This document shows positions 2,359 to 15,265 of a stretch of DNA of 28,179 nucleotides, one piece after another. The stretch covers positions 1 through 28,179 of the IMG/VR virus record IMGVR_UViG_2778261154_000006. The stretch is one strand, 5' to 3'. The number at the start of each line of letters is the position of its first letter. Position 1 is the stretch's first letter. The position numbers and the translations under genes are program-made. The notes beneath the pieces are model-generated. The model made no database searches. It was given only the letters and a program-made list of their open reading frames with translations, and was not told where the DNA came from. This stretch comes from a virus (Duplodnaviria > Heunggongvirae > Uroviricota > Caudoviricetes).

Positions 2359-2709
2359 ATGAAAAAAAACGCTAATAATCCATACTCCAAATTTCGTAAT
2401 GGCGTAGAACGCCATGTACACCACGTTGCTACCAGTGCATCACGTAGCAACATCCGCTACAGCCTGAGCGATACACACGCAACGCCGGATGGCTACCCCG
2501 TAAAACAAATCGGCGAGCACGCCTGGCTGATTGAGAAAGCTGGAATCGTAGTCCACAAATACCCACGCAATCCGTTTACCGGAAACCGCATTTTTGCTCT
2601 GAGCTGCGGCGACAATCAGTTCGGGCAGGATTTCACGTTGTACGAAGCGCTACGCACAGTTGATCGCCTTCTTTACGGAGAAAATTTTATTAAACAGGCT
2701 GAGTTATAA
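2359..2709 (+). CDS. hypothetical early protein
   Basis: 116-aa ORF, co-directional and tightly spaced in the early operon. No recognisable motif. Confidence 0.4.
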   Translation: MKKNANNPYSKFRNGVERHVHHVATSASRSNIRYSLSDTHATPDGYPVKQIGEHAWLIEKAGIVVHKYPRNPFTGNRIFALSCGDNQFGQDFTLYEALRTVDRLLYGENFIKQAEL

Positions 2710-2998: not shown

Positions 2999-3184
2999 AT
3001 GAATTTCAGTTATTCATTCAGTGTACCGGAGTCGTTATTTGTTATCACACTGATTGCAGCCGCAATGTTTTTTGCCATCTGCATACTGACACTTATTGAT
3101 ACATGGCGGGAAATACGCGACAGACGTCGCCAGAAAAAAAACGGGATGCATACAACGCATTCATTCAGCACAAAGAAGACGTAG
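2999..3184 (+). CDS. small single-pass membrane protein
   Basis: 61-aa ORF with GGAG SD 9 nt upstream. Hydrophobic stretch LFVITLIAAAMFFAICILTLI followed by a basic tail RDRRRQKK. Confidence 0.4.
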   Translation: MNFSYSFSVPESLFVITLIAAAMFFAICILTLIDTWREIRDRRRQKKNGMHTTHSFSTKKT

Positions 3185-7548: not shown

Positions 7549-10065
7549 ATGAGCCATCACAACACACACCTGGCGTACCCGTGGAATGCCCCGCTGCCGG
7601 TTATTGATCCTGAGACGTTCGGCAGAGCGTTACCGCAGAAGCCAACCGCATTACAACGGGCAATCCGGGACTACCTCACCGAAGACATTCGCACTGAGGC
7701 CCGGCTGGATGAAGAAACCGTGGTCTTCCTGACAACCACGGACAAAGGCAAACAAATTAATTCACACCTTCACCGGGACGAAGAGCGGCAGACAAGGCTG
7801 GATAAGCTGGCACGACACAGACGCGAAAATCCGCCAACGGAGGTATCGGAAGCGATAGCCGAACTTCGCGCCCTGCCACCGTTTCTTGCCAGCGTGCTGA
7901 TCCGCGATCTGGCACGCCTGAACCGGAAACAGCAAAGCGCCCGCAGCAAAGGTGTAAAAAACAATAGCGCATACGTGGCCGATAACTTCGTTCGCCGTGG
8001 ACTGCGCGCGCGCCTGAAACGTATCGAACGGGTTAACGACCGCTTTGCAACGCCGGCATTCAAATCCAGTGTCATACGCCATCGCCTTGAAGAGCTGCTC
8101 ATGCTGCCGCAACTCAGCCGCGACAAGATCCAGCGCATCGCCACACTGACTGCGCAGTTCTTTACCGCAGAATTTGAACGCATATGTGATGAAGTTCCTG
8201 AACAGACCGGAAAGAATAATGACAGCCCGGTTATCTGGCTGCTGGCCTACCAGAAGATGGCACGCATAGCCTTAACGCTGGGCGTGATCCCGCCATACTG
8301 GCCGGAACTCGAAATCAGGCACAACCGACGCACACCGCCGGACCCTGAACTGATACCGGGTGCGGTACTGCGCATCACCTGCGCGACCTGGTGGAACAAC
8401 CAGTTACGCCACATCGCCGATCTCTGGCGGGAGGAGTTACTGCGTGCCGCCGGCAGAGTGTCACGTAAACAATCCCCTTATATCAGCCATGAATCACTAC
8501 TGGAGTTTCGCGAGAAGCGCCAGCGCACCCGTGATTTTCTCAAAAGCTGGGATATTGAAAACGAAGACGGCGAGCGCCTGAGTCTGGAGGAAGTGTACTG
8601 GGCGGGCCCGGGGAATCCACGCAACCGCCGCAATGAAATGATGGTCTGCGTCAGAGGGATGGAGATGGTAGCCGAATTGCGGGGTGACGTCGCATTCTTC
8701 ATCACGGTAACAGCCCCTTCCCGCTTTCACAGCGTGAACGAAGACGGCAGCCTGAACCCGAAATACAACGGTGCCACTGTACGCGATACCAGTGATTATC
8801 TGGTTTACGACTTCTTCGCAGCCGTAAGAAAAAAAATCAAAAAAGAGGGGCTGGGCTGGTACGGCGTGCGAACCGCTGAGCCACACCATGACGGCACGCC
8901 ACACTGGCATATGCTGGTATTCACGTCCCCTGAGAACGCAGAGCACATCATCGAAATTATGCGCGACGCAGCGATTAAATCAGATCGCCACGAACTGGGG
9001 GACGATATTTCGCCGCGCTTTGAATGCGAGAAGATAGATCCGGAAAAAGGGTCGCCGGCAAGCTATATCGCAACCTATATCGGTAAGAACCTGGACGCCA
9101 GCGCCTTCCACAACAATGATCCGAAAACCGGAAAACCTTACGTCGATAAGGAATCCGGGAAAACCATGGCGGAAACCGTGGAGAACGCCATTGCATGGGC
9201 GAGCCTTCACCGCATACGTCAGTTCCAGTTTTTCGGCATTCCGCCCCGCCAGGTGTGGCGTGAACTCCGCCGCCTTGCAAGCCAGATGGGGCGCAACCCG
9301 GCATCACCGAAGCGACTCGATCATGGCGATATTGACGCCATTATGGCCGCCGCAGACGTAGGGTGTTTTGCCACCTACATCATGAAACAGGGTGGCGTGC
9401 TTATTCCACGCAACCAGTATCTGGTCCGCACCGCATACAAAACCGCAGACGAAGCTAATGACTACGGCGAATTCCCGCAGCGCATCTACGGAATTTGCGC
9501 CCCGTCACTCGGGGAACGGTACACCATCTGCACCCATCCGGATGAGTGGAAACTGGTCAGAAAAGAATCTGACGCCGACAACAGCACGGACGAGGGTTTT
9601 GACCTTCGGGGCGGCTTCGCCGCACCTTGGACTCGTGGCAATAACTGTCCCGGTGACGAAAAAACAGCCGGAACCGGCACAGAAAACAGGCAGCGTGGGT
9701 CGCGGCTGACGCTTCCGGAAAGCGGCCTGGCGCACTGGTTGCAGACGTTAACCCGTCACGAGCGGAAACAGCTCATCAGACAGCTTAAAAATCAGCCGCC
9801 CACCACGGATACCGGACAAAATAACACCAGACCAGCATCAGACACCCCTGTCAGGGTGGAGGTTGTCGTGCCTGTCGACACCACGACCATCGCACAAATC
9901 ACCCGCGAACTCGACGCGCTGGGTGTGCAGCTGCCTGACGCAGCCATTATTTCCGTGAGTAACGGTGCCCGCGTTCGCCCGGGCGACGGGCGTATCGCGT
10001 ACTGGAGCGCCACAACCCGCCGTATCGTCATCACACAGGAGTCGTCAGCGGAGGTAAGATCATGA
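7549..10065 (+). CDS. A: rolling-circle replication initiation endonuclease, P2 gpA family (HUH nuclease)
   Basis: 838-aa ORF. HUH motif in GTPHWHMLVF, and a Y-x-x-x-Y pair in SYIATYIGKNLD as in the gpA active site. Size and position match P2 A. Confidence 0.88.
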   Translation: MSHHNTHLAYPWNAPLPVIDPETFGRALPQKPTALQRAIRDYLTEDIRTEARLDEETVVFLTTTDKGKQINSHLHRDEERQTRLDKLARHRRENPPTEVSEAIAELRALPPFLASVLIRDLARLNRKQQSARSKGVKNNSAYVADNFVRRGLRARLKRIERVNDRFATPAFKSSVIRHRLEELLMLPQLSRDKIQRIATLTAQFFTAEFERICDEVPEQTGKNNDSPVIWLLAYQKMARIALTLGVIPPYWPELEIRHNRRTPPDPELIPGAVLRITCATWWNNQLRHIADLWREELLRAAGRVSRKQSPYISHESLLEFREKRQRTRDFLKSWDIENEDGERLSLEEVYWAGPGNPRNRRNEMMVCVRGMEMVAELRGDVAFFITVTAPSRFHSVNEDGSLNPKYNGATVRDTSDYLVYDFFAAVRKKIKKEGLGWYGVRTAEPHHDGTPHWHMLVFTSPENAEHIIEIMRDAAIKSDRHELGDDISPRFECEKIDPEKGSPASYIATYIGKNLDASAFHNNDPKTGKPYVDKESGKTMAETVENAIAWASLHRIRQFQFFGIPPRQVWRELRRLASQMGRNPASPKRLDHGDIDAIMAAADVGCFATYIMKQGGVLIPRNQYLVRTAYKTADEANDYGEFPQRIYGICAPSLGERYTICTHPDEWKLVRKESDADNSTDEGFDLRGGFAAPWTRGNNCPGDEKTAGTGTENRQRGSRLTLPESGLAHWLQTLTRHERKQLIRQLKNQPPTTDTGQNNTRPASDTPVRVEVVVPVDTTTIAQITRELDALGVQLPDAAIISVSNGARVRPGDGRIAYWSATTRRIVITQESSAEVRS

Positions 10066-10493
10066 CGCGATTTCACTGCACCATGCAGCGTCAGCAGTTC
10101 GACGCCGTTATGCGCCAGCGCACGCCAGCCATGACACTGAGAGGCGTAGCCACAAGACCACAGCCCGGGGACGAACTGGAAATCACGGTGGCCAGCCCCG
10201 ATCGCACCACCACAACCACCATCACCGACATACTTAACAGGCGACCGGGCAGTGAATATCAGAGCTGGACCATTGCCGTTCGCCCACGCCGTTCGCCGGA
10301 AGAACCGGAGCCGCTCACCCCGGCCGGAAAAATCATGCAGAAGTACCACGAAGAGCAGGCCCGCAAACACAATGTCGCGCTGGCCAGAACACTGACTGCC
10401 GTCAATCGCAAGGCCGCACTGGCGCGAAGGGTCTTTTCATCGCAGCACCCTTCATTCGCCAGACCGGCACAACACAGGAGAGATCCACAATGA
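10062..10493 (+). CDS. hypothetical protein
   Basis: 143-aa ORF whose start overlaps the A stop. No confident motif. Confidence 0.4.
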   Translation: MTRFHCTMQRQQFDAVMRQRTPAMTLRGVATRPQPGDELEITVASPDRTTTTTITDILNRRPGSEYQSWTIAVRPRRSPEEPEPLTPAGKIMQKYHEEQARKHNVALARTLTAVNRKAALARRVFSSQHPSFARPAQHRRDPQ

Positions 10494-10738
10494 GAGAGCA
10501 ATTACCAGACACCGTGCCAGTACAGGAAATCAAAGAAAATATCAGGCAACAACTTCACGGATTTTATATTACTTATGATTTGTGGCTGAAAAACGGAGCA
10601 AATCCAGACGGAATATTTTCGCGAAACTGTGGTTTATGCGCCAGCCTCTGGGATTATCTCGAATTAACGGGTGCTGATAAAGAAGCCGCACTGGAGCTAT
10701 TGCACATTGATTTCAGAAATGCCGGGCGAACCGCATAG
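10490..10738 (+). CDS. hypothetical small protein in a lower-GC patch (accessory gene at the P2 tin/old-equivalent position)
   Basis: 82-aa ORF with ATGA start/stop overlap. Visibly AT-richer than flanking phage DNA. Confidence 0.4.
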   Translation: MREQLPDTVPVQEIKENIRQQLHGFYITYDLWLKNGANPDGIFSRNCGLCASLWDYLELTGADKEAALELLHIDFRNAGRTA

Positions 10739-10793: not shown

Positions 10794-11069
10794 TTACGCG
10801 CCATCACTGAGCAGAATATCCAGTGCCATTTGCCTTTCGTCTGGTTTAAGGCGCTGGAGCAATGCTTTAACGACACCATCAGTTTGCAGGTCACTGGGTG
10901 AAATCACGCGAAGATCGGAAAGATTGAGCGAAAAACGCATATTACAGTCAGAATTAGTGCAGGTGCAATAAACTACCGCCAGCGTTTTTGCGTCATCCTG
11001 CCATGCAGTTTTGCGTATAGCCGCCCGGCAGTGACACGCCGGACATTCAATTTTCATCACACCCGCCAT
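10794..11069 (-). CDS. Ogr/Delta-family zinc-finger late-gene transcriptional activator (putative)
   Basis: 91-aa ORF. ECPACHC...YCTCTNSDCNMRF gives a C-x2-C...C-x4-C arrangement with spacing like P2 Ogr (CPLCQH...CQNVNCSATF, recalled from memory). Confidence 0.55.
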   Translation of the reverse strand: MAGVMKIECPACHCRAAIRKTAWQDDAKTLAVVYCTCTNSDCNMRFSLNLSDLRVISPSDLQTDGVVKALLQRLKPDERQMALDILLSDGA

Positions 11070-11119
11070 ACCCCCCCCACAATCTGACCGGTTGCAGGGG
11101 TAATATAGTCTTTTTCGGG

Positions 11120-12175
11120 TTATTTTTCATCAGCCAGCGCAGACACCACATTTTCCACATCTTCCAGCGTAAAATTAAGGTGTAACGACGGGGGGATTTC
11201 GGGATCGCTGTTCACAGCCTGCATGAATTTACGGCAGACAGGTGTCACTTCATCCCGTCCATAGGTTGTCCTTGCCTTATCGGGATCGCCAAGTCCGCTC
11301 GCATTTTGCGGGATAATACCGGCAAGACCAGCCGGAAAGCGGTGCGCCGTAAGAACATCCTGAGCGCTGATATTCTTCACATTTGAAAACTCATCTTTTT
11401 GCTGAATATCCCCAACCGGAATAATTTTAATCCCGTCCGGTTGCCCTTTTGGGATACTGATAAACATGTTACGGAAATTCCCAAGCCCGTTACCGCTCTC
11501 TATTTTTTTACGTATAGCTTCTTCAGCCTCAACAGACATATTCGGGTCGGACGCGTACATGATGAACCCCATATGCGCACCGTTGTGATAGTAGCGACGT
11601 CTGAAAATGGTCGCCTCACTGTTCAGTAACGCTGAATGAATACCACCGATATAATCAGGCAGTCCATAAATCTGCTGTCGCGGATCATGCATACGTAAAA
11701 ACACAACATCAGACGGCGAATAGACCAGCGGCTCGCCCTCCTGTAACACGATAAAATCAAGTTGCTTGCTGCGACGCAGATACAAAGACGGTAATGGTGC
11801 CAGCGCCACCACCCGTCCCCACCCGTTACGGACCTTCAGAATGGCCACATCACCAAACAGCAGGTAGTCAAAGACAGCCATTTCCATCTGATCGGTCGTC
11901 AGTCCACCCCCCTGGTAGCTGGCACACACCATATTTTTGCGTGCATACAGTACGCCGCCATGCTGGGCGTTAAGGTTCGGCAACTGCGCGAGCGCAAGTC
12001 TGTCTATTGGTAGTGTCCAGTAGTTGTAGCTACCGTTATACCAGACGTTGATGTATTCCGTGCCGGTAGTCAGTATCGGTTCCGGCTCCCCAAAAGTGAT
12101 AATATTGCCGCGTCCGGGAGTAAAATTTTCTGTCTGTGCCCGTTTACGCAGGCGTGCGCTTTTACGTTTACTCAT
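11120..12175 (-). CDS. Q: portal protein, P2 gpQ family
   Basis: Leftward gene directly downstream of the terminase with ATGA overlap at 12172-12175. About 351 aa from this start, close to P2 Q. The track ORF extends to 12196, but the ATG at 12175 is translationally coupled to the P stop. Confidence 0.8.
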   Translation of the reverse strand: MSKRKSARLRKRAQTENFTPGRGNIITFGEPEPILTTGTEYINVWYNGSYNYWTLPIDRLALAQLPNLNAQHGGVLYARKNMVCASYQGGGLTTDQMEMAVFDYLLFGDVAILKVRNGWGRVVALAPLPSLYLRRSKQLDFIVLQEGEPLVYSPSDVVFLRMHDPRQQIYGLPDYIGGIHSALLNSEATIFRRRYYHNGAHMGFIMYASDPNMSVEAEEAIRKKIESGNGLGNFRNMFISIPKGQPDGIKIIPVGDIQQKDEFSNVKNISAQDVLTAHRFPAGLAGIIPQNASGLGDPDKARTTYGRDEVTPVCRKFMQAVNSDPEIPPSLHLNFTLEDVENVVSALADEK

Positions 12176-13995
12176 GCAGCCTTCCCGAATGCCCACACCG
12201 AGGGGCGGTCATATTCATAGTCGAGCGGTTCATTACAGACCGCGTGCGATATGGCAAAAAATACGTCCGCGTGACCGGTCGTTTCGCTGCGTTCGGCGGC
12301 GAACGTCATTGCGTTCTGACTGGCAGTCATTACACGGCGGATGGCCATAAATGCCAGCGGGATATCGGCACGTTCTTTTGTCACCTCATCAACCGCATCT
12401 TTCACCCACTGGATACGTCGCCGCTCAATGAGGTCAATCATCTTAAGCACCAGTTTATTTTTATTATCAACACTGTAGTTAATCCCCATCACCTCACGCG
12501 GTGCGGAGCGTACCAGTTGATCATAAACACCCCGGCCAATACCCGTGATATCCACCCCGATATGCGTAAACCGGTAGCGTTTCATTAATTCTTCAATCTG
12601 CTTAACCTGCCAGGTGAAGTTAAGCCCCACCCACTGGTAGACAGCCAGCACGCGAAATTTTTCTTCAGGCTCAACAGGCGGGGCCACAATAACAAATGTT
12701 GAGTTATCACCCGTTCGTGACGGATCAAAACCACCCCACACCTCACGATTACCAAAAGGCCGTAATGCGGAGGGGTCGAAGTCCTGCCAGATGCCGAACT
12801 CAACCTCACATTTTTCAAGGTCTGAGAATTTAAATACTGTGTCGCGGGAGTCAGTGAACTCACACATGTACAGCATGGCAAACGCCGTGGCGCTGTAGCG
12901 GTTACGCAGCTTCTCAATGTTAACTCTGGCACTGAGTCCCTTAGCGCACGCATCCTCCATTGTGATGACATAGCGCCAGATCCCGTCAGGGCAGACCTGT
13001 CCACCTTTACGCAATTCCTTGCTGGTCGGGAACTCCGCCGCCTTACGTTTCGGATCGTCGCCCTTCCATTCATCCCCTGTCCACAGCCTGTAAGCCTGGT
13101 GCGTTTTAGCGCTGGGGGTTGAAAAATAGGTAATACGGAATTCGTCATGCGTCGCCATCGCTGACGCCACTTCATGCAGGCGGGCAAATTTCGGTATCCA
13201 GAAGACCTCATCCCCGTACAGGTCGCCACTGTAGGACTGCGCCGTATTGGGATTGGTCGCCAGAAAACGCAGTATCGCACCATTGCTGAGGCGAATCGGG
13301 TTGCCTTTAAGCTCGACACCAAAGAATTGCTGCGCAATACTGAGAATATAGAAACGGAAAACTTCCGCCTGGGGTTTACTGGCGGAAAAGAATATCTGAT
13401 TCTTGCCCGTGAGAACGGCCTTTTCAAACCCTTCCCATGCAAAATAGTAGGTAAATCCTTCCTGTCGCCCTTTCAGAATGAAGCGGAACAGTTCGTCGCC
13501 GTGCTCACGCACATATTGCTGATATTCAAACAGATGACCATTCGCTTTTTCATCAAATATTTCTTTTGTCAGTCCGCCGACATCATTTTTACGTAGTCGC
13601 TTCCTTTTTTTACCACCTTCGTCATTCCCTTCTTCACTGCTACCCTGTCGGCCATCATTGACCACCACGCCGGTATTGACCATCGCCCGGATCTCTTCCA
13701 TCCGTTCAGCATGTTTGTTCTTCTGCGCCATCAGCCTGACGTGCTGGGATATCAGGAAGCGCAGCTCTTCAAGCTCAAGCTCGCTTTTACCATCCTTGCA
13801 GGTCAGTCGTTCCACTCGCCGGGCGACAGCCACTTCCACCGACTCGGCTGGTAACATTTCATTCCATTGCCCCCGGACAGCCCAGTTATAAACGGTACGC
13901 ACAGGAAGCCCCAGCGTGGCCGCTATCTCTTTTGGTGTACTGAATTTCAGATACAGGGCGCGGGCAGCGTCCCTGACTTCTTCGGTATATTTCAT
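12172..13995 (-). CDS. P: terminase large (ATPase) subunit, P2 gpP family
   Basis: Long leftward ORF divergent from the capsid operon. N-terminal HTH-like segment after MKYTEE. About 607 aa from the ATG at 13995. The track ORF extends to 14190; the start is uncertain. Confidence 0.8.
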   Translation of the reverse strand: MKYTEEVRDAARALYLKFSTPKEIAATLGLPVRTVYNWAVRGQWNEMLPAESVEVAVARRVERLTCKDGKSELELEELRFLISQHVRLMAQKNKHAERMEEIRAMVNTGVVVNDGRQGSSEEGNDEGGKKRKRLRKNDVGGLTKEIFDEKANGHLFEYQQYVREHGDELFRFILKGRQEGFTYYFAWEGFEKAVLTGKNQIFFSASKPQAEVFRFYILSIAQQFFGVELKGNPIRLSNGAILRFLATNPNTAQSYSGDLYGDEVFWIPKFARLHEVASAMATHDEFRITYFSTPSAKTHQAYRLWTGDEWKGDDPKRKAAEFPTSKELRKGGQVCPDGIWRYVITMEDACAKGLSARVNIEKLRNRYSATAFAMLYMCEFTDSRDTVFKFSDLEKCEVEFGIWQDFDPSALRPFGNREVWGGFDPSRTGDNSTFVIVAPPVEPEEKFRVLAVYQWVGLNFTWQVKQIEELMKRYRFTHIGVDITGIGRGVYDQLVRSAPREVMGINYSVDNKNKLVLKMIDLIERRRIQWVKDAVDEVTKERADIPLAFMAIRRVMTASQNAMTFAAERSETTGHADVFFAISHAVCNEPLDYEYDRPSVWAFGKAA

Positions 13996-14152
13996 TCGCC
14001 CATCATAAAGAGCAATAACACTCTGAAATATCGTTAAATTTTGGCATTTTTCGCACATAAAATCATATACGAAAAGCCCGGATTCAGAACGAATGAAACC
14101 CGCGAAAACAGCCGCAATAATACCGCCAGATACATCAAAAAGCGGTAATGAA

Positions 14153-15265
14153 ATGGCAAAGCAGAAATACACCACTGACTGGATATGCATAGCAACCGAA
14201 GGCTACGCCATCGACGGTCGCCCCATTACCCGCGAAATGATCCAGCAGGCCGCTGACAACTACAGCACCGCCAGATACACAGCGATGATCTGGCCTAATC
14301 ACCCCGTATACAGTCTTCAGGAGCGAGAATTTACCCCCAATCTGGGGCTTGTTTCCGAGCTGGCGGCTAAAGAAGACGCCGGAAGACTGCGCCTTATGGC
14401 GAAGCTGGAGCCTAACCAGGCGCTGGTTAACCTTAACGATCGCGGCCAGAAGCTCTTTACCTCGTGCGAGTTCTGGGAGAACTATGCCAACACCGGGCAA
14501 ACCTATCTGTACGGGCTGGCAGCAACCGACAGTCCGGCAAGTCTGGGAACCCAGCGCATGGAAATCAAATCAGTGGAAAACAACACACAGGGCTCACGTC
14601 CGCAGTATGCCGCCGCTGGAAATATTGAAATGTTCAGTCTTGGGCGTCTGACGCTGGTCGCTGACACCCCAACAAACCATCATGAGGATAAATCCATGAC
14701 TAAAGAACAGGCGAACCAGTTGCTAGCCCAGATTGTCACTCTGACGGCAAAAATTGACGCGCAGGCGAACACGCAACCACAGGCACAGCAACCCGCACCG
14801 GCGCAGCCCACGGCATCCGCAACAGCAGACACACAGCCAGTAACCGGGGATTTCAGCGCTCACGCTAATCACGTTGCGGAGCTGAGTGAAAAGCTTTCCG
14901 TTGCCACTGACACACTGGCCATCAACCCGAAAGACGACACGGCACGCCAGAACTACACCACCGCCGTGACGGAGCTACAGACCGCACTTAACACCTTTAC
15001 GGTGCAGCCACAGGATGCTGAAACCGCAAAACTCCAGGCACGTATCGCCGCCCGTAATGGCGGACAACAGCCAGCGCCAGCCGCAGCGCAGAATTTCAGT
15101 ACCCGGAAGACGGAAAAAGATGATGAGGCCGACGCCGCCACACTGACAACGCTTACCAGTGCAATCGAAAATCTGAGCCAGCGTTTTTCGGTCATTGAAA
15201 GCCAGCGCACACCGACGCCGGGCGCAGCCCCCGGCGGACAACCCGCACAGTTTGAGCCGCTGTAA
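14153..15265 (+). CDS. O: capsid scaffolding protein, P2 gpO family
   Basis: Segment FWENYANTGQTYLYGLAATDSPASLGTQ matches the conserved gpO core (recalled P2 gpO: NFANTGKCYLVGLAVTDDPASLGTE). Ala/Gln-rich coiled-coil C-terminus. Start placed at MAKQK (14153); the track start is 14093. Confidence 0.8.
   Translation: MAKQKYTTDWICIATEGYAIDGRPITREMIQQAADNYSTARYTAMIWPNHPVYSLQEREFTPNLGLVSELAAKEDAGRLRLMAKLEPNQALVNLNDRGQKLFTSCEFWENYANTGQTYLYGLAATDSPASLGTQRMEIKSVENNTQGSRPQYAAAGNIEMFSLGRLTLVADTPTNHHEDKSMTKEQANQLLAQIVTLTAKIDAQANTQPQAQQPAPAQPTASATADTQPVTGDFSAHANHVAELSEKLSVATDTLAINPKDDTARQNYTTAVTELQTALNTFTVQPQDAETAKLQARIAARNGGQQPAPAAAQNFSTRKTEKDDEADAATLTTLTSAIENLSQRFSVIESQRTPTPGAAPGGQPAQFEPL

What the first reader, a model, noticed from the sequence alone, without database searches (positions are those of the whole stretch)
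11067..11080. Homopolymeric G8 (C8 on the plus strand) tract immediately upstream of the Ogr-like start codon
On the minus strand the zinc-finger gene is preceded by GT-GGGGGGGG-T-ATG. The G run is both the only Shine-Dalgarno-like element and a slippage-prone homopolymer. Length changes would alter spacing to the start codon and could make expression of the putative late activator phase-variable.
Basis: seen in the sequence. Interest (0 to 1): 0.4.

Follow-up and report, generated by a model that had tools for sequence, protein, structure and literature searches.

The report
G-rich ribosome-binding site of Ogr-like gene
The run of eight G's is the ribosome-binding site of a prophage late-gene activator gene; it arose by a single base substitution and drifts slightly in length, and nothing indicates an on/off switch, so it is largely ordinary.

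Summary
On the minus strand, GT-G8-T-ATG sits at 11080-11067 and precedes a 91-aa Ogr/Delta-type zinc-finger gene of a K139-type P2-like prophage.

The G run is the gene's Shine-Dalgarno element. Every relative has a G run whose 5' edge lies at -9/-10. The most divergent relative has a canonical GGAGG at that position.

- **Origin of G8:** most relatives read G5-TTTT and the nearest ones G7-TT. The window's G8-T has the same total length, so it came from a T-to-G substitution in the spacer, not from slippage.
- **Slippage variants exist but are few:** G8-TT in 2 of 24 same-protein loci and G6-TTTT in one Salmonella relative. Satellite-borne copies carry G6, G7, G9 and G10. Interrupted GGGAGGGG tracts are invariant.
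- **Predicted effect:** a crude SD/spacing model scores G5T4, G7TT and G8T equally. Each one-base step changes the score by about 1-1.5 kcal/mol, which is graded rather than on/off.

A phase switch is therefore unproven and unlikely.

Beyond the finding, the G run is also the 3' arm of a conserved hairpin. It pairs with a C run just after an invariant -10-like TATATTA box. This is predicted to hide the SD and AUG in read-through late transcripts only. That model is inferred, not shown.

The parts
11071..11078 (-). G8 homopolymer (C8 on the plus strand), positions -2 to -9 relative to the ATG
   Evidence: Alleles in relatives are listed.
11074..11078 (-). Inferred Shine-Dalgarno core: the five 5'-most G's, -9 to -5, conserved in all family members
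   Evidence: G5TTTT, G7TT, G8T and GGAGGGGTT all place GGGGG or GGAGG at -9..-5. Duplex with the anti-SD is -7.8 kcal/mol at aligned spacing 4.
11067..11069 (-). ATG start codon of the Ogr/Delta-like gene
10794..11069 (-). Ogr/Delta-like zinc-finger CDS (91 aa plus stop), with C9-x2-C12...C37-x4-C42
   Evidence: Pfam PF04606, E 5e-5, 23.5 bits against a cut-off of 26.3. All 14 family members hit PF04606. PHROG 603 'transcriptional regulator', E 4e-24. RefSeq annotates it as 'ogr/Delta-like zinc finger family protein'.
11102..11130 (-). Sigma-70-like promoter candidate: -35 ATGAAA (11130-11125), 17-bp spacer, -10 TATATT (11107-11102). The -35 overlaps the last portal codons.
   Evidence: The same site is found in relatives. 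TATATTA is invariant in 14/14 aligned intergenic regions. A -10-like hexamer lies at -38 in four phage genera. K139 orf13 carries an annotated promoter P13.
11092..11100 (-). C-run arm (CCCCUGCAA), complementary to UUGUGGGGG and acting as an anti-SD
11061..11120 (-). Predicted extended hairpin from the portal stop codon to codon 3 of the Ogr-like gene. It pairs both the SD and the AUG.
   Evidence: MFE -26.6 kcal/mol, z -2.6, 2 of 200 shuffles as stable. 97.6% of cells are paired in 14 relatives, but with no compensatory changes.
11120..12175 (-). Portal gene immediately upstream, on the same strand and 50 nt away. It is the source of possible read-through transcripts.

Best explanation
The tract is the ribosome-binding site of the late-gene activator (Ogr/Delta family) of a K139-type P2-like prophage. 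The five 5'-most G's (-9 to -5) form the Shine-Dalgarno core, which pairs with the CCUCC of 16S rRNA. The remaining G's occupy what is a U-rich spacer in most relatives. The inferred series is G5-UUUU, then G7-UU, then G8-U, reached by T-to-G substitutions that keep the distance to the AUG. The three forms are predicted to be equivalent for initiation. A run of 7-8 G is intrinsically slippage-prone, so rare +1 alleles occur. This is passive microsatellite instability with a modest, graded predicted effect, not a programmed on/off switch.

The same G's also form the 3' arm of a hairpin. Its partner is a C run lying directly downstream of the gene's own -10-like box. Transcripts from that promoter would start after the C run and have a free SD. 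Read-through transcripts from the portal operon would have the SD and AUG paired.

Shown here: the sequence, the conservation, the allele spectrum and the pairing potential. Inferred: SD function, promoter use, hairpin function and the size of any expression effect.
For: - **Position of the run.** Its 5' edge is fixed at -9 or -10 in 38 of the 39 P2-like-context loci (the other is degenerate L013); the satellite-borne copies range from -7 to -11. A canonical GGAGG sits there in the most divergent relative, L021/22.
- **Allele counts among loci encoding the identical protein.** G7TT 20, G8T 2 (window and L029), G8TT 2.
- **Haplotypes.** G8T lies on a haplotype shared with G7TT loci, so it is a T-to-G substitution. 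G8TT lies on another G7TT haplotype.
- **Crude model.** G5T4 = G7TT = G8T = -7.8 kcal/mol at spacing 4. A +1 step gives -8.9, -1 gives -6.3 and -2 gives -2.0.
- **Other homopolymers.** Over 2.7 kb in 19 loci the G tract is the only homopolymer of 6 or more that varies in length. The other indels are two in one assembly with broken ORFs.
- **Dependence on run length and purity.** Satellite copies with pure runs carry G7, G9, G10 and G10; across the four, 1.4 kb of flank differs at one SNP. Five copies with GGGAGGGG are identical.
- **Promoter and hairpin.**
- **Predicted SD accessibility.** Unpaired probability is 0.00-0.11 in the long transcript and 0.67-0.69 from the predicted start site, with no difference between G7TT, G8T and G8TT.
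- **Gene identity and position.**. PMC8537503 states that the K139 ogr homologue lies between the portal and replication endonuclease genes.
Against: - No expression data and no read-level data were available.
- The RBS model is crude. It ignores mRNA folding, and it scores the natural G6-T-ATG satellite allele very poorly, so it may overstate the spacing penalty.
- The length variation G6-G10 in satellites, and +1 alleles in two phage clades, is what a tuned contingency locus would also show.
- The hairpin has no compensatory base changes within the family.
- Per-sequence z-scores for the hairpin core are mostly weak, from +1.0 to -2.4.
- One related phage, ESSI2_ev239, lacks the anti-SD segment.
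- The loci come from overlapping public databases, so the counts may include duplicates.
Confidence: 0.7

Rival explanations
1. One reading: a true contingency locus. Slipped-strand changes of the G run switch or strongly tune translation of the late activator, making prophage lytic competence phase-variable.
For: A pure G8 lies directly in the RBS. +1 alleles are seen in two phage clades. G6, G7, G9 and G10 occur in near-identical satellite copies. It is the only variable homopolymer in the locus. Both derived alleles in the window's clade lengthen the run to 8.
Against: The window's own allele arose by substitution at constant length. 20 of 24 same-protein loci share one allele. Most relatives carry a short, stable G5. 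The predicted effect per step is about 1-1.5 kcal/mol, roughly 2-fold. Predicted accessibility is identical for the three alleles. No -1 or -2 'off-like' alleles were seen in phage copies. No paper on a phase-variable ogr was found. Homopolymer indels between assemblies also occur elsewhere, for example the A6/A5 run in gpA of L029, so some variation may be technical.
Confidence: 0.12
2. The real start is the internal ATG at 11057-11055 (MKIECPAC..., as RefSeq annotates in some genomes). The G run would then be only 5'-UTR or a hairpin arm, not the SD.
For: RefSeq calls an 87-aa product from identical DNA in 4 of 6 E. coli genomes. GGCGGGTG upstream of that ATG is weakly SD-like.
Against: M5 is I or L in 3 of 13 homologue clusters, whereas M1-A2 is invariant. 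Codons 2 and 4 show synonymous third-position variation. Distant phage homologues start at the position of M1. The spacing of GGGTG to that ATG is only 2 nt.
Confidence: 0.08
3. The G run matters mainly as the 3' arm of an RNA hairpin that ends or processes the late portal-terminase transcript, as an attenuator, terminator or RNase III site, rather than as a translation signal.
For: A 60-nt imperfect hairpin has z -2.6. In G5-T4 relatives the stem is followed by UUUUAU. Pairing potential is kept in 97.6% of cells. The cross-genus arm-swap test gives P of about 0.003-0.007.
Against: The terminator scan finds nothing at this site in the window or in G5T4 relatives. The U tract is lost in the window's clade (G7TT, G8T). 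There are no compensatory changes. Satellite copies keep the G run without any C-run partner, so the G run is conserved independently of the hairpin.
Confidence: 0.15
4. G8-T is a sequencing or assembly artefact of the common G7-TT allele.
For: It is a rare allele (2/24). The only other carrier, L029, is almost the same prophage and has a homopolymer indel that breaks gpA.
Against: The difference is a base substitution, not an indel. Two assemblies agree on it.
Confidence: 0.05

Closest known systems
Ogr of P2, B of 186, Delta of P4, and orf13 of Vibrio phage K139 (Ogr/Delta zinc-finger late activators)
   Same: A small Cys4 zinc-finger protein with a PF04606 match. The gene lies between the portal and replication-endonuclease genes, exactly as described for K139 and Smhb1. 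It has a candidate promoter of its own and sits downstream of a late operon. From my own knowledge, P2 ogr is likewise transcribed from its own promoter and later as part of the FETUD late transcript.
   Different: Identity to characterised phages is only 34-48%. No P2-type TGT-N12-ACA site lies between the divergent terminase and scaffold genes; the six window matches lie elsewhere, no more than chance gives. A G homopolymer RBS has not been described for P2, 186 or K139. K139 uses AGGTG.
Homopolymer-mediated phase variation. From my own knowledge: poly-G/C tracts in Neisseria porA/opc promoters, Bordetella fim promoters, and Campylobacter and Haemophilus contingency genes.
   Same: A pure G/C run of 8 in an expression signal, with length polymorphism among close relatives.
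   Different: Classical cases place the tract between the -35 and -10 boxes or inside the ORF, so one base gives on/off. Here the tract is the SD itself and abuts the AUG, so register can slide and the predicted effect is graded. The host is mismatch-repair-proficient Enterobacteriaceae. No within-clone switching has been shown.
SD-sequestering leader hairpins that make translation depend on transcript context. From my own knowledge: many phage and bacterial examples of translational coupling or occlusion.
   Same: An anti-SD C run pairs with the SD, and the AUG is paired in an outer helix. Predicted accessibility differs about 6-fold or more between long and short transcripts.
   Different: Function is untested and there is no covariation within the family. 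The transcription start is only inferred from a consensus match.

Membership tests
Shine-Dalgarno / ribosome-binding site | Complementarity to the 16S rRNA 3' end (CCUCC) | tested here: met
   GGGGG pairs with the anti-SD at -7.8 kcal/mol. The homologous position is GGAGG in L021/22 and GGGAGGGG in L044-48 and phiO18P.
Shine-Dalgarno / ribosome-binding site | Suitable spacing to a genuine start codon | tested here: met
   The core at -9..-5 leaves a 4-nt spacer (aligned spacing 4). The start codon is validated by conservation.
Shine-Dalgarno / ribosome-binding site | Translation depends on the element | not testable with these tools
   Needs reporter fusions or toeprinting.
Simple-sequence contingency (phase-variable) locus | Uninterrupted repeat tract inside a promoter, RBS or ORF | tested here: met
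   G8 at -9..-2.
Simple-sequence contingency (phase-variable) locus | Tract length varies among otherwise near-identical copies | tested here: inconclusive
   2/24 carry +1 in the window's clade, 1/7 in the Salmonella clade, and satellites carry G6-G10. The window's own difference is a substitution. Technical indels are seen at other runs.
Simple-sequence contingency (phase-variable) locus | One-unit change toggles expression on/off | tested here: not met
   By prediction only: about 1.1-1.5 kcal/mol per step and equal predicted accessibility. An experiment is still needed.
Simple-sequence contingency (phase-variable) locus | Reversible high-frequency switching within a clone | not testable with these tools
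   No read data were available.
Ogr/Delta late-gene activators (PF04606) | Cys-x2-Cys ... Cys-x4-Cys zinc finger near the N-terminus | tested here: met
   C9, C12, C37 and C42 are invariant in 14 sequences.
Ogr/Delta late-gene activators (PF04606) | Profile match above the curated threshold | tested here: inconclusive
   The window protein scores 23.5 bits against a cut-off of 26.3. All 14 relatives match at E<=0.01, best 8.6e-8. There is no NCBIfam hit. PHROG 603 matches at E 4e-24.
Ogr/Delta late-gene activators (PF04606) | Encoded by a P2-like phage or its satellite | tested here: met
   Portal, terminase and gpA are neighbours. Homologues sit at the same place in Peduoviridae. Homologues also occur in integrase/primase satellites.
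Ogr/Delta late-gene activators (PF04606) | Activates late promoters | not testable with these tools
   No P2-type TGT-N12-ACA site lies at the divergent late promoter region. The binding site for this subgroup is unknown.
SD-occluding regulatory hairpin | Stable pairing of the SD and AUG beyond the shuffle expectation | tested here: met
   -26.6 kcal/mol, z -2.6. Core-only z-scores are weaker.
SD-occluding regulatory hairpin | Covariation supporting the helix | tested here: inconclusive
   0 compensatory pairs within the family. The cross-genus cognate versus non-cognate arm test gives P 0.003-0.007. ev239 lacks the arm.

The most novel reading that the evidence does not exclude
The G tract may be a hypermutable translational rheostat on the master late activator, shared by a K139-type helper prophage and its P4-like satellites. 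Slippage (G6 to G10 in satellite copies, G7/G8 in the phage) would tune how much activator each element makes and so shift the balance between helper and satellite. This would be layered on a hairpin that silences translation from read-through late transcripts.
Probability: 0.12. Interest if true: 0.55.

Novelty: new member of a known kind. Interest (0 to 1): 0.2.

Why it matters
If the tract really tuned the late activator, it would be a simple stochastic control of prophage or satellite lytic competence in Enterobacteriaceae. No such control has been described for Ogr/Delta genes. As the evidence stands, the practical points are these:

- It explains an odd-looking homopolymer as an ordinary SD plus spacer.
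- It fixes the start codon, which RefSeq annotates inconsistently.
- It flags the tract as a site where assemblies and variant callers will disagree.
- It gives a testable model for how this phage group may separate early and late translation of its activator: own promoter with a free SD, read-through with an occluded SD.

Tried and rejected
- **Chance.** A G/C run of 8 or more is expected in 45% of simulated windows. Run length alone is not evidence.
- **Wider sampling.** Two genome-contig scans and two metagenome-contig scans returned nothing. A viral-contig scan for the satellite tract returned nothing. A 'distant' search of E. coli genomes found only the same six genomes.
- **Intrinsic terminator.** None is called at this site in the window or in G5T4 relatives.
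- **Known RNA family.** There was no meaningful Rfam match.
- **P2-type Ogr sites.** TGT-N12-ACA occurs no more often than chance and is absent from the divergent late-promoter region. A TTCG-N16-CGAA dyad there is a single occurrence.
- **Covariation in the hairpin within the family.** None was found.
- **Portal-Ogr frameshift or fusion.** Rejected, because the portal stop is 41 nt upstream of the tract and the tract is intergenic.
- **G-quadruplex and transcriptional slippage.** Considered but not pursued. The tract is in a 5'-UTR and neither idea makes a prediction that these tools can test.

Full report
**Observation**

The minus strand reads ...CAGATT-GT-GGGGGGGG-T-ATG-GCG-GGT-GTG-ATG-AAA.... 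The G8 run is window 11078-11071. The ATG is 11069-11067 and opens a 91-aa ORF that ends at 10794. The coordinates and the description are therefore correct.

The run is the only G/C homopolymer of 7 or more in the 28-kb window. Even so, 45% of first-order Markov simulations of the window contain a G/C run of 8 or more. Length alone is not significant.

**Context**

The ORF lies 50 nt downstream of a portal gene on the same strand. The portal gene follows a large-terminase gene. The ORF converges on a gpA-type replication endonuclease gene.

The protein matches Pfam Ogr_Delta at E 5e-5, with 23.5 bits against a curated cut-off of 26.3. All 14 family members match that model. It also matches PHROG 603, 'transcriptional regulator', at E 4e-24. 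RefSeq names it 'ogr/Delta-like zinc finger family protein'. C9, C12, C37 and C42 are invariant.

Homologues of 34-48% identity sit at the same place in Salmonella phages SW3 and SW5, in the ESSI-2 group, in Yersinia vB_YenM_324, in Aeromonas phiO18P and in Vibrio K139 orf13. The literature states that the K139 ogr homologue lies between the portal and replication endonuclease genes (PMC8537503). This is therefore a K139-type P2-like (Peduoviridae) prophage. No close match exists among deposited phages; portal DNA identity is 66-72%. Only 6 of 5426 complete E. coli genomes carry it.

**Which start codon**

RefSeq annotates 91 aa in some genomes and 87 aa (starting at M5) in others, from identical DNA. 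M1 is the better start, for three reasons:
- M1-A2-x-V4 is invariant in 13 homologue clusters, whereas M5 is I or L in three.
- Codons 2 and 4 vary synonymously (GCG/GCT/GCA and GTG/GTA).
- Distant phage homologues begin MRV[FLM]K..CPEC, which aligns with M1.

The G run therefore does immediately precede the real start.

**The tract in relatives**

I collected 61 loci including the window. I tabulated the tract for the 53 of them from the window's own family; L013 was read, and the 7 characterised phages. Some loci may be the same genome held in two databases.

| Group | Alleles and counts |
|---|---|
| Loci encoding the identical protein (window's clade) | G7-TT 20; G8-T 2 (window and L029); G8-TT 2 (L030, L036) |
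| Salmonella P2-like relatives | G5-TTTT 12; G6-TTTT 1; G6-CTTT 1; GGAGGGG-TT 2; G5-ATT 1 (degenerate L013) |
| Satellite-borne copies | G6-T 1; G7-T 1; G9-T 1; G10-T 2; GGGAGGGG-T 5; GGG-TTTTT 3 |

The 5' edge of the run is at -9 in most loci and at -10 in the +1 variants. A canonical GGAGG occupies -9..-5 in the most divergent member. The conserved unit is thus a G5 (or GGAGG) SD core at -9..-5 followed by a 4-nt spacer. The window's clade has replaced spacer T's with G's.

Haplotype comparison over 1.7 kb shows that G8-T lies on a haplotype shared with G7-TT loci. It is therefore a T-to-G substitution at constant length. G8-TT lies on another G7-TT haplotype and is a genuine +1.

**Is the tract unusually mutable?**

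Over 2.73 kb in 19 near-identical loci there are 23 SNP columns. The G tract is the only homopolymer of 6 or more that changes length; T6, G6, A7 and C6 runs do not. The only other indels are two in CP026877, an assembly with broken terminase and portal ORFs.

In one satellite lineage, four loci differ at a single SNP over about 1.4 kb around the gene, yet carry G7, G9, G10 and G10. Five loci of a sister lineage with the interrupted tract GGGAGGGG are all the same.

The run therefore behaves as a normal microsatellite. Instability rises with length and purity.

One caution applies. L029 differs from the window over 5.3 kb only by a 1-nt indel in an A6 run (window 8839-8844) that splits gpA. 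Homopolymer differences between assemblies occur elsewhere too, and some may be technical.

**Would length changes matter?**

The run abuts the start codon, with only one T between them. Slippage therefore does not move a fixed SD. It only shifts the run's 5' edge.

I ran a crude calculation of anti-SD duplex energy plus a Salis-type spacing penalty (my own implementation, with no mRNA folding).

| Allele(s) | Score (kcal/mol) |
|---|---|
| G5T4, G7TT, G8T | -7.8 (aligned spacing 4) |
| +1 alleles | -8.9 |
| -1 alleles | -6.3 |
| -2 alleles | -2.0 |

This amounts to roughly 2-fold per step, so the effect is graded. Predicted SD accessibility is the same for G7TT, G8T and G8TT. The model is rough: it scores the natural G6-T-ATG satellite allele poorly. 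No literature on a phase-variable ogr was found.

**What else the G run does**

The 50-nt intergenic region has three strongly conserved elements besides the start codon. These are TATATTA (invariant in 14 of 14), a CC core of a C run just after it, and the G run.

TATATT, together with ATGAAA or GTGAAA 17 bp upstream, is a sigma-70-like promoter match in the window and in relatives. A -10-like hexamer sits at exactly -38 in the window's family, in both ESSI-2-group phages fetched at that point, in YenM_324 and in ev239. K139's depositors annotated a promoter for orf13.

The C run pairs with the G run, and CUAUAU pairs with GUAUGG, which includes the AUG. Together these give an extended hairpin spanning 11120-11061. 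Its MFE is -26.6 kcal/mol and its z-score is -2.6, with 2 of 200 shuffles as stable.

Pairing potential is kept in 97.6% of cells across 14 relatives. There are no compensatory changes, so there is no covariation statistic.

Across genera the arms differ but stay complementary:
- SW3: CAUCCC / GGGAUG.
- ESSI-2 group: UCCAG / CUGGA.
- YenM_324: UCCAGAAG / CUUUUGGA.

A cognate versus non-cognate arm-swap test gives P of about 0.003-0.007. Phage ev239 lacks the arm, and satellite copies keep the G run without any C run.

If transcription starts about 7 nt after the -10 box, the C run is left out of the transcript. The SD is then predicted to be 0.67-0.69 unpaired. In a read-through transcript from the portal operon it is 0.00-0.11 unpaired. 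This gives a plausible way to translate the activator from its own transcript while muting it on late read-through RNA. The model is inferred and untested. No intrinsic terminator is called at this site and no Rfam family matches.

**Verdict**

The tract is an ordinary, G-rich Shine-Dalgarno element plus spacer of an Ogr-like gene. It was lengthened to G8 by a point substitution. It shows mild, length-dependent slippage in the population. Its predicted effects on expression are modest. The phase-variation idea is not excluded but has no positive support for this prophage.

The most interesting leftovers are the G6-G10 polymorphism in satellite-borne copies and the possible SD-occluding hairpin.

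Noticed in passing
L023-L026, L044-L048, L060, L012, L027, L028 (relatives, not in the window): Homologues 81-87% identical to the window's Ogr-like protein lie outside prophages. Their neighbours are a PemK toxin pair, an integrase and a large primase (Zn_Ribbon_Prim/Toprim/DUF927). This is a P4-like satellite context, which suggests satellites specific to this K139-type helper group. Their G tract ranges from G6 to G10, and one lineage uses a GTG start.
   Followed up: partly
window 10062-10738 (+), compared with L002, L014, L016, L021, L031, L037, L039, L040 and L049: The segment between the Ogr-like gene and gpA is a variable cargo slot. The window has two unannotated ORFs (143 and 82 aa, no Pfam hit). 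Relatives carry PIN/DUF3368 plus HTH-M78, Fic, YafO toxin, HTH plus peptidase M78/U49, or a DNA methylase. This looks like a toxin/defence hotspot.
   Followed up: partly
window 11055-11069 (-); L001 versus L002: RefSeq annotates the same DNA as a 91-aa protein (WP_000929361.1) in two E. coli genomes and as an 87-aa protein (WP_000687404.1) in four. Conservation favours the 91-aa start.
   Followed up: yes
window 8839-8844 (+), inside gpA (7549-10065): L029 (GCA_900450175.1) is identical to the window over 5.3 kb except for one base missing from this A6 run. The loss splits gpA into 299- and 495-aa ORFs. It is either a real inactivating slip or an assembly error.
   Followed up: partly
L038 (CP026877.1): The terminase and portal ORFs are broken by single-base deletions in C5 and G4 runs. 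The prophage copy is either decaying or carries long-read assembly errors.
   Followed up: no
L013 (IMGVR_UViG_2675903388_000003): This copy has ATG changed to ATA at the start codon and a 1-nt deletion in codon 3. The protein match stops at residue 79. It is a degenerate copy, or one that starts at M5.
   Followed up: no
window 14050-14073 (+): A dyad TTCG-N16-CGAA (extended form TTTTCG...CGAAAA) lies midway between the divergent terminase (start about 13995, minus strand) and scaffold (start 14153, plus strand) genes. It could be an activator site, but it occurs only once in the window. No P2-type TGT-N12-ACA is present there.
   Followed up: partly
window 12172-14190 (-): The longest terminase ORF is 672 aa, but RefSeq and other callers give 605-629 aa (start near 13995). 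The longer reading would overlap the scaffold gene start.
   Followed up: no
window 2362-2369, 3134-3141, 8829-8836 (+): There are three A8 runs in the window, one of them inside gpA next to the A6 run that differs in L029. They were not examined for variation.
   Followed up: no
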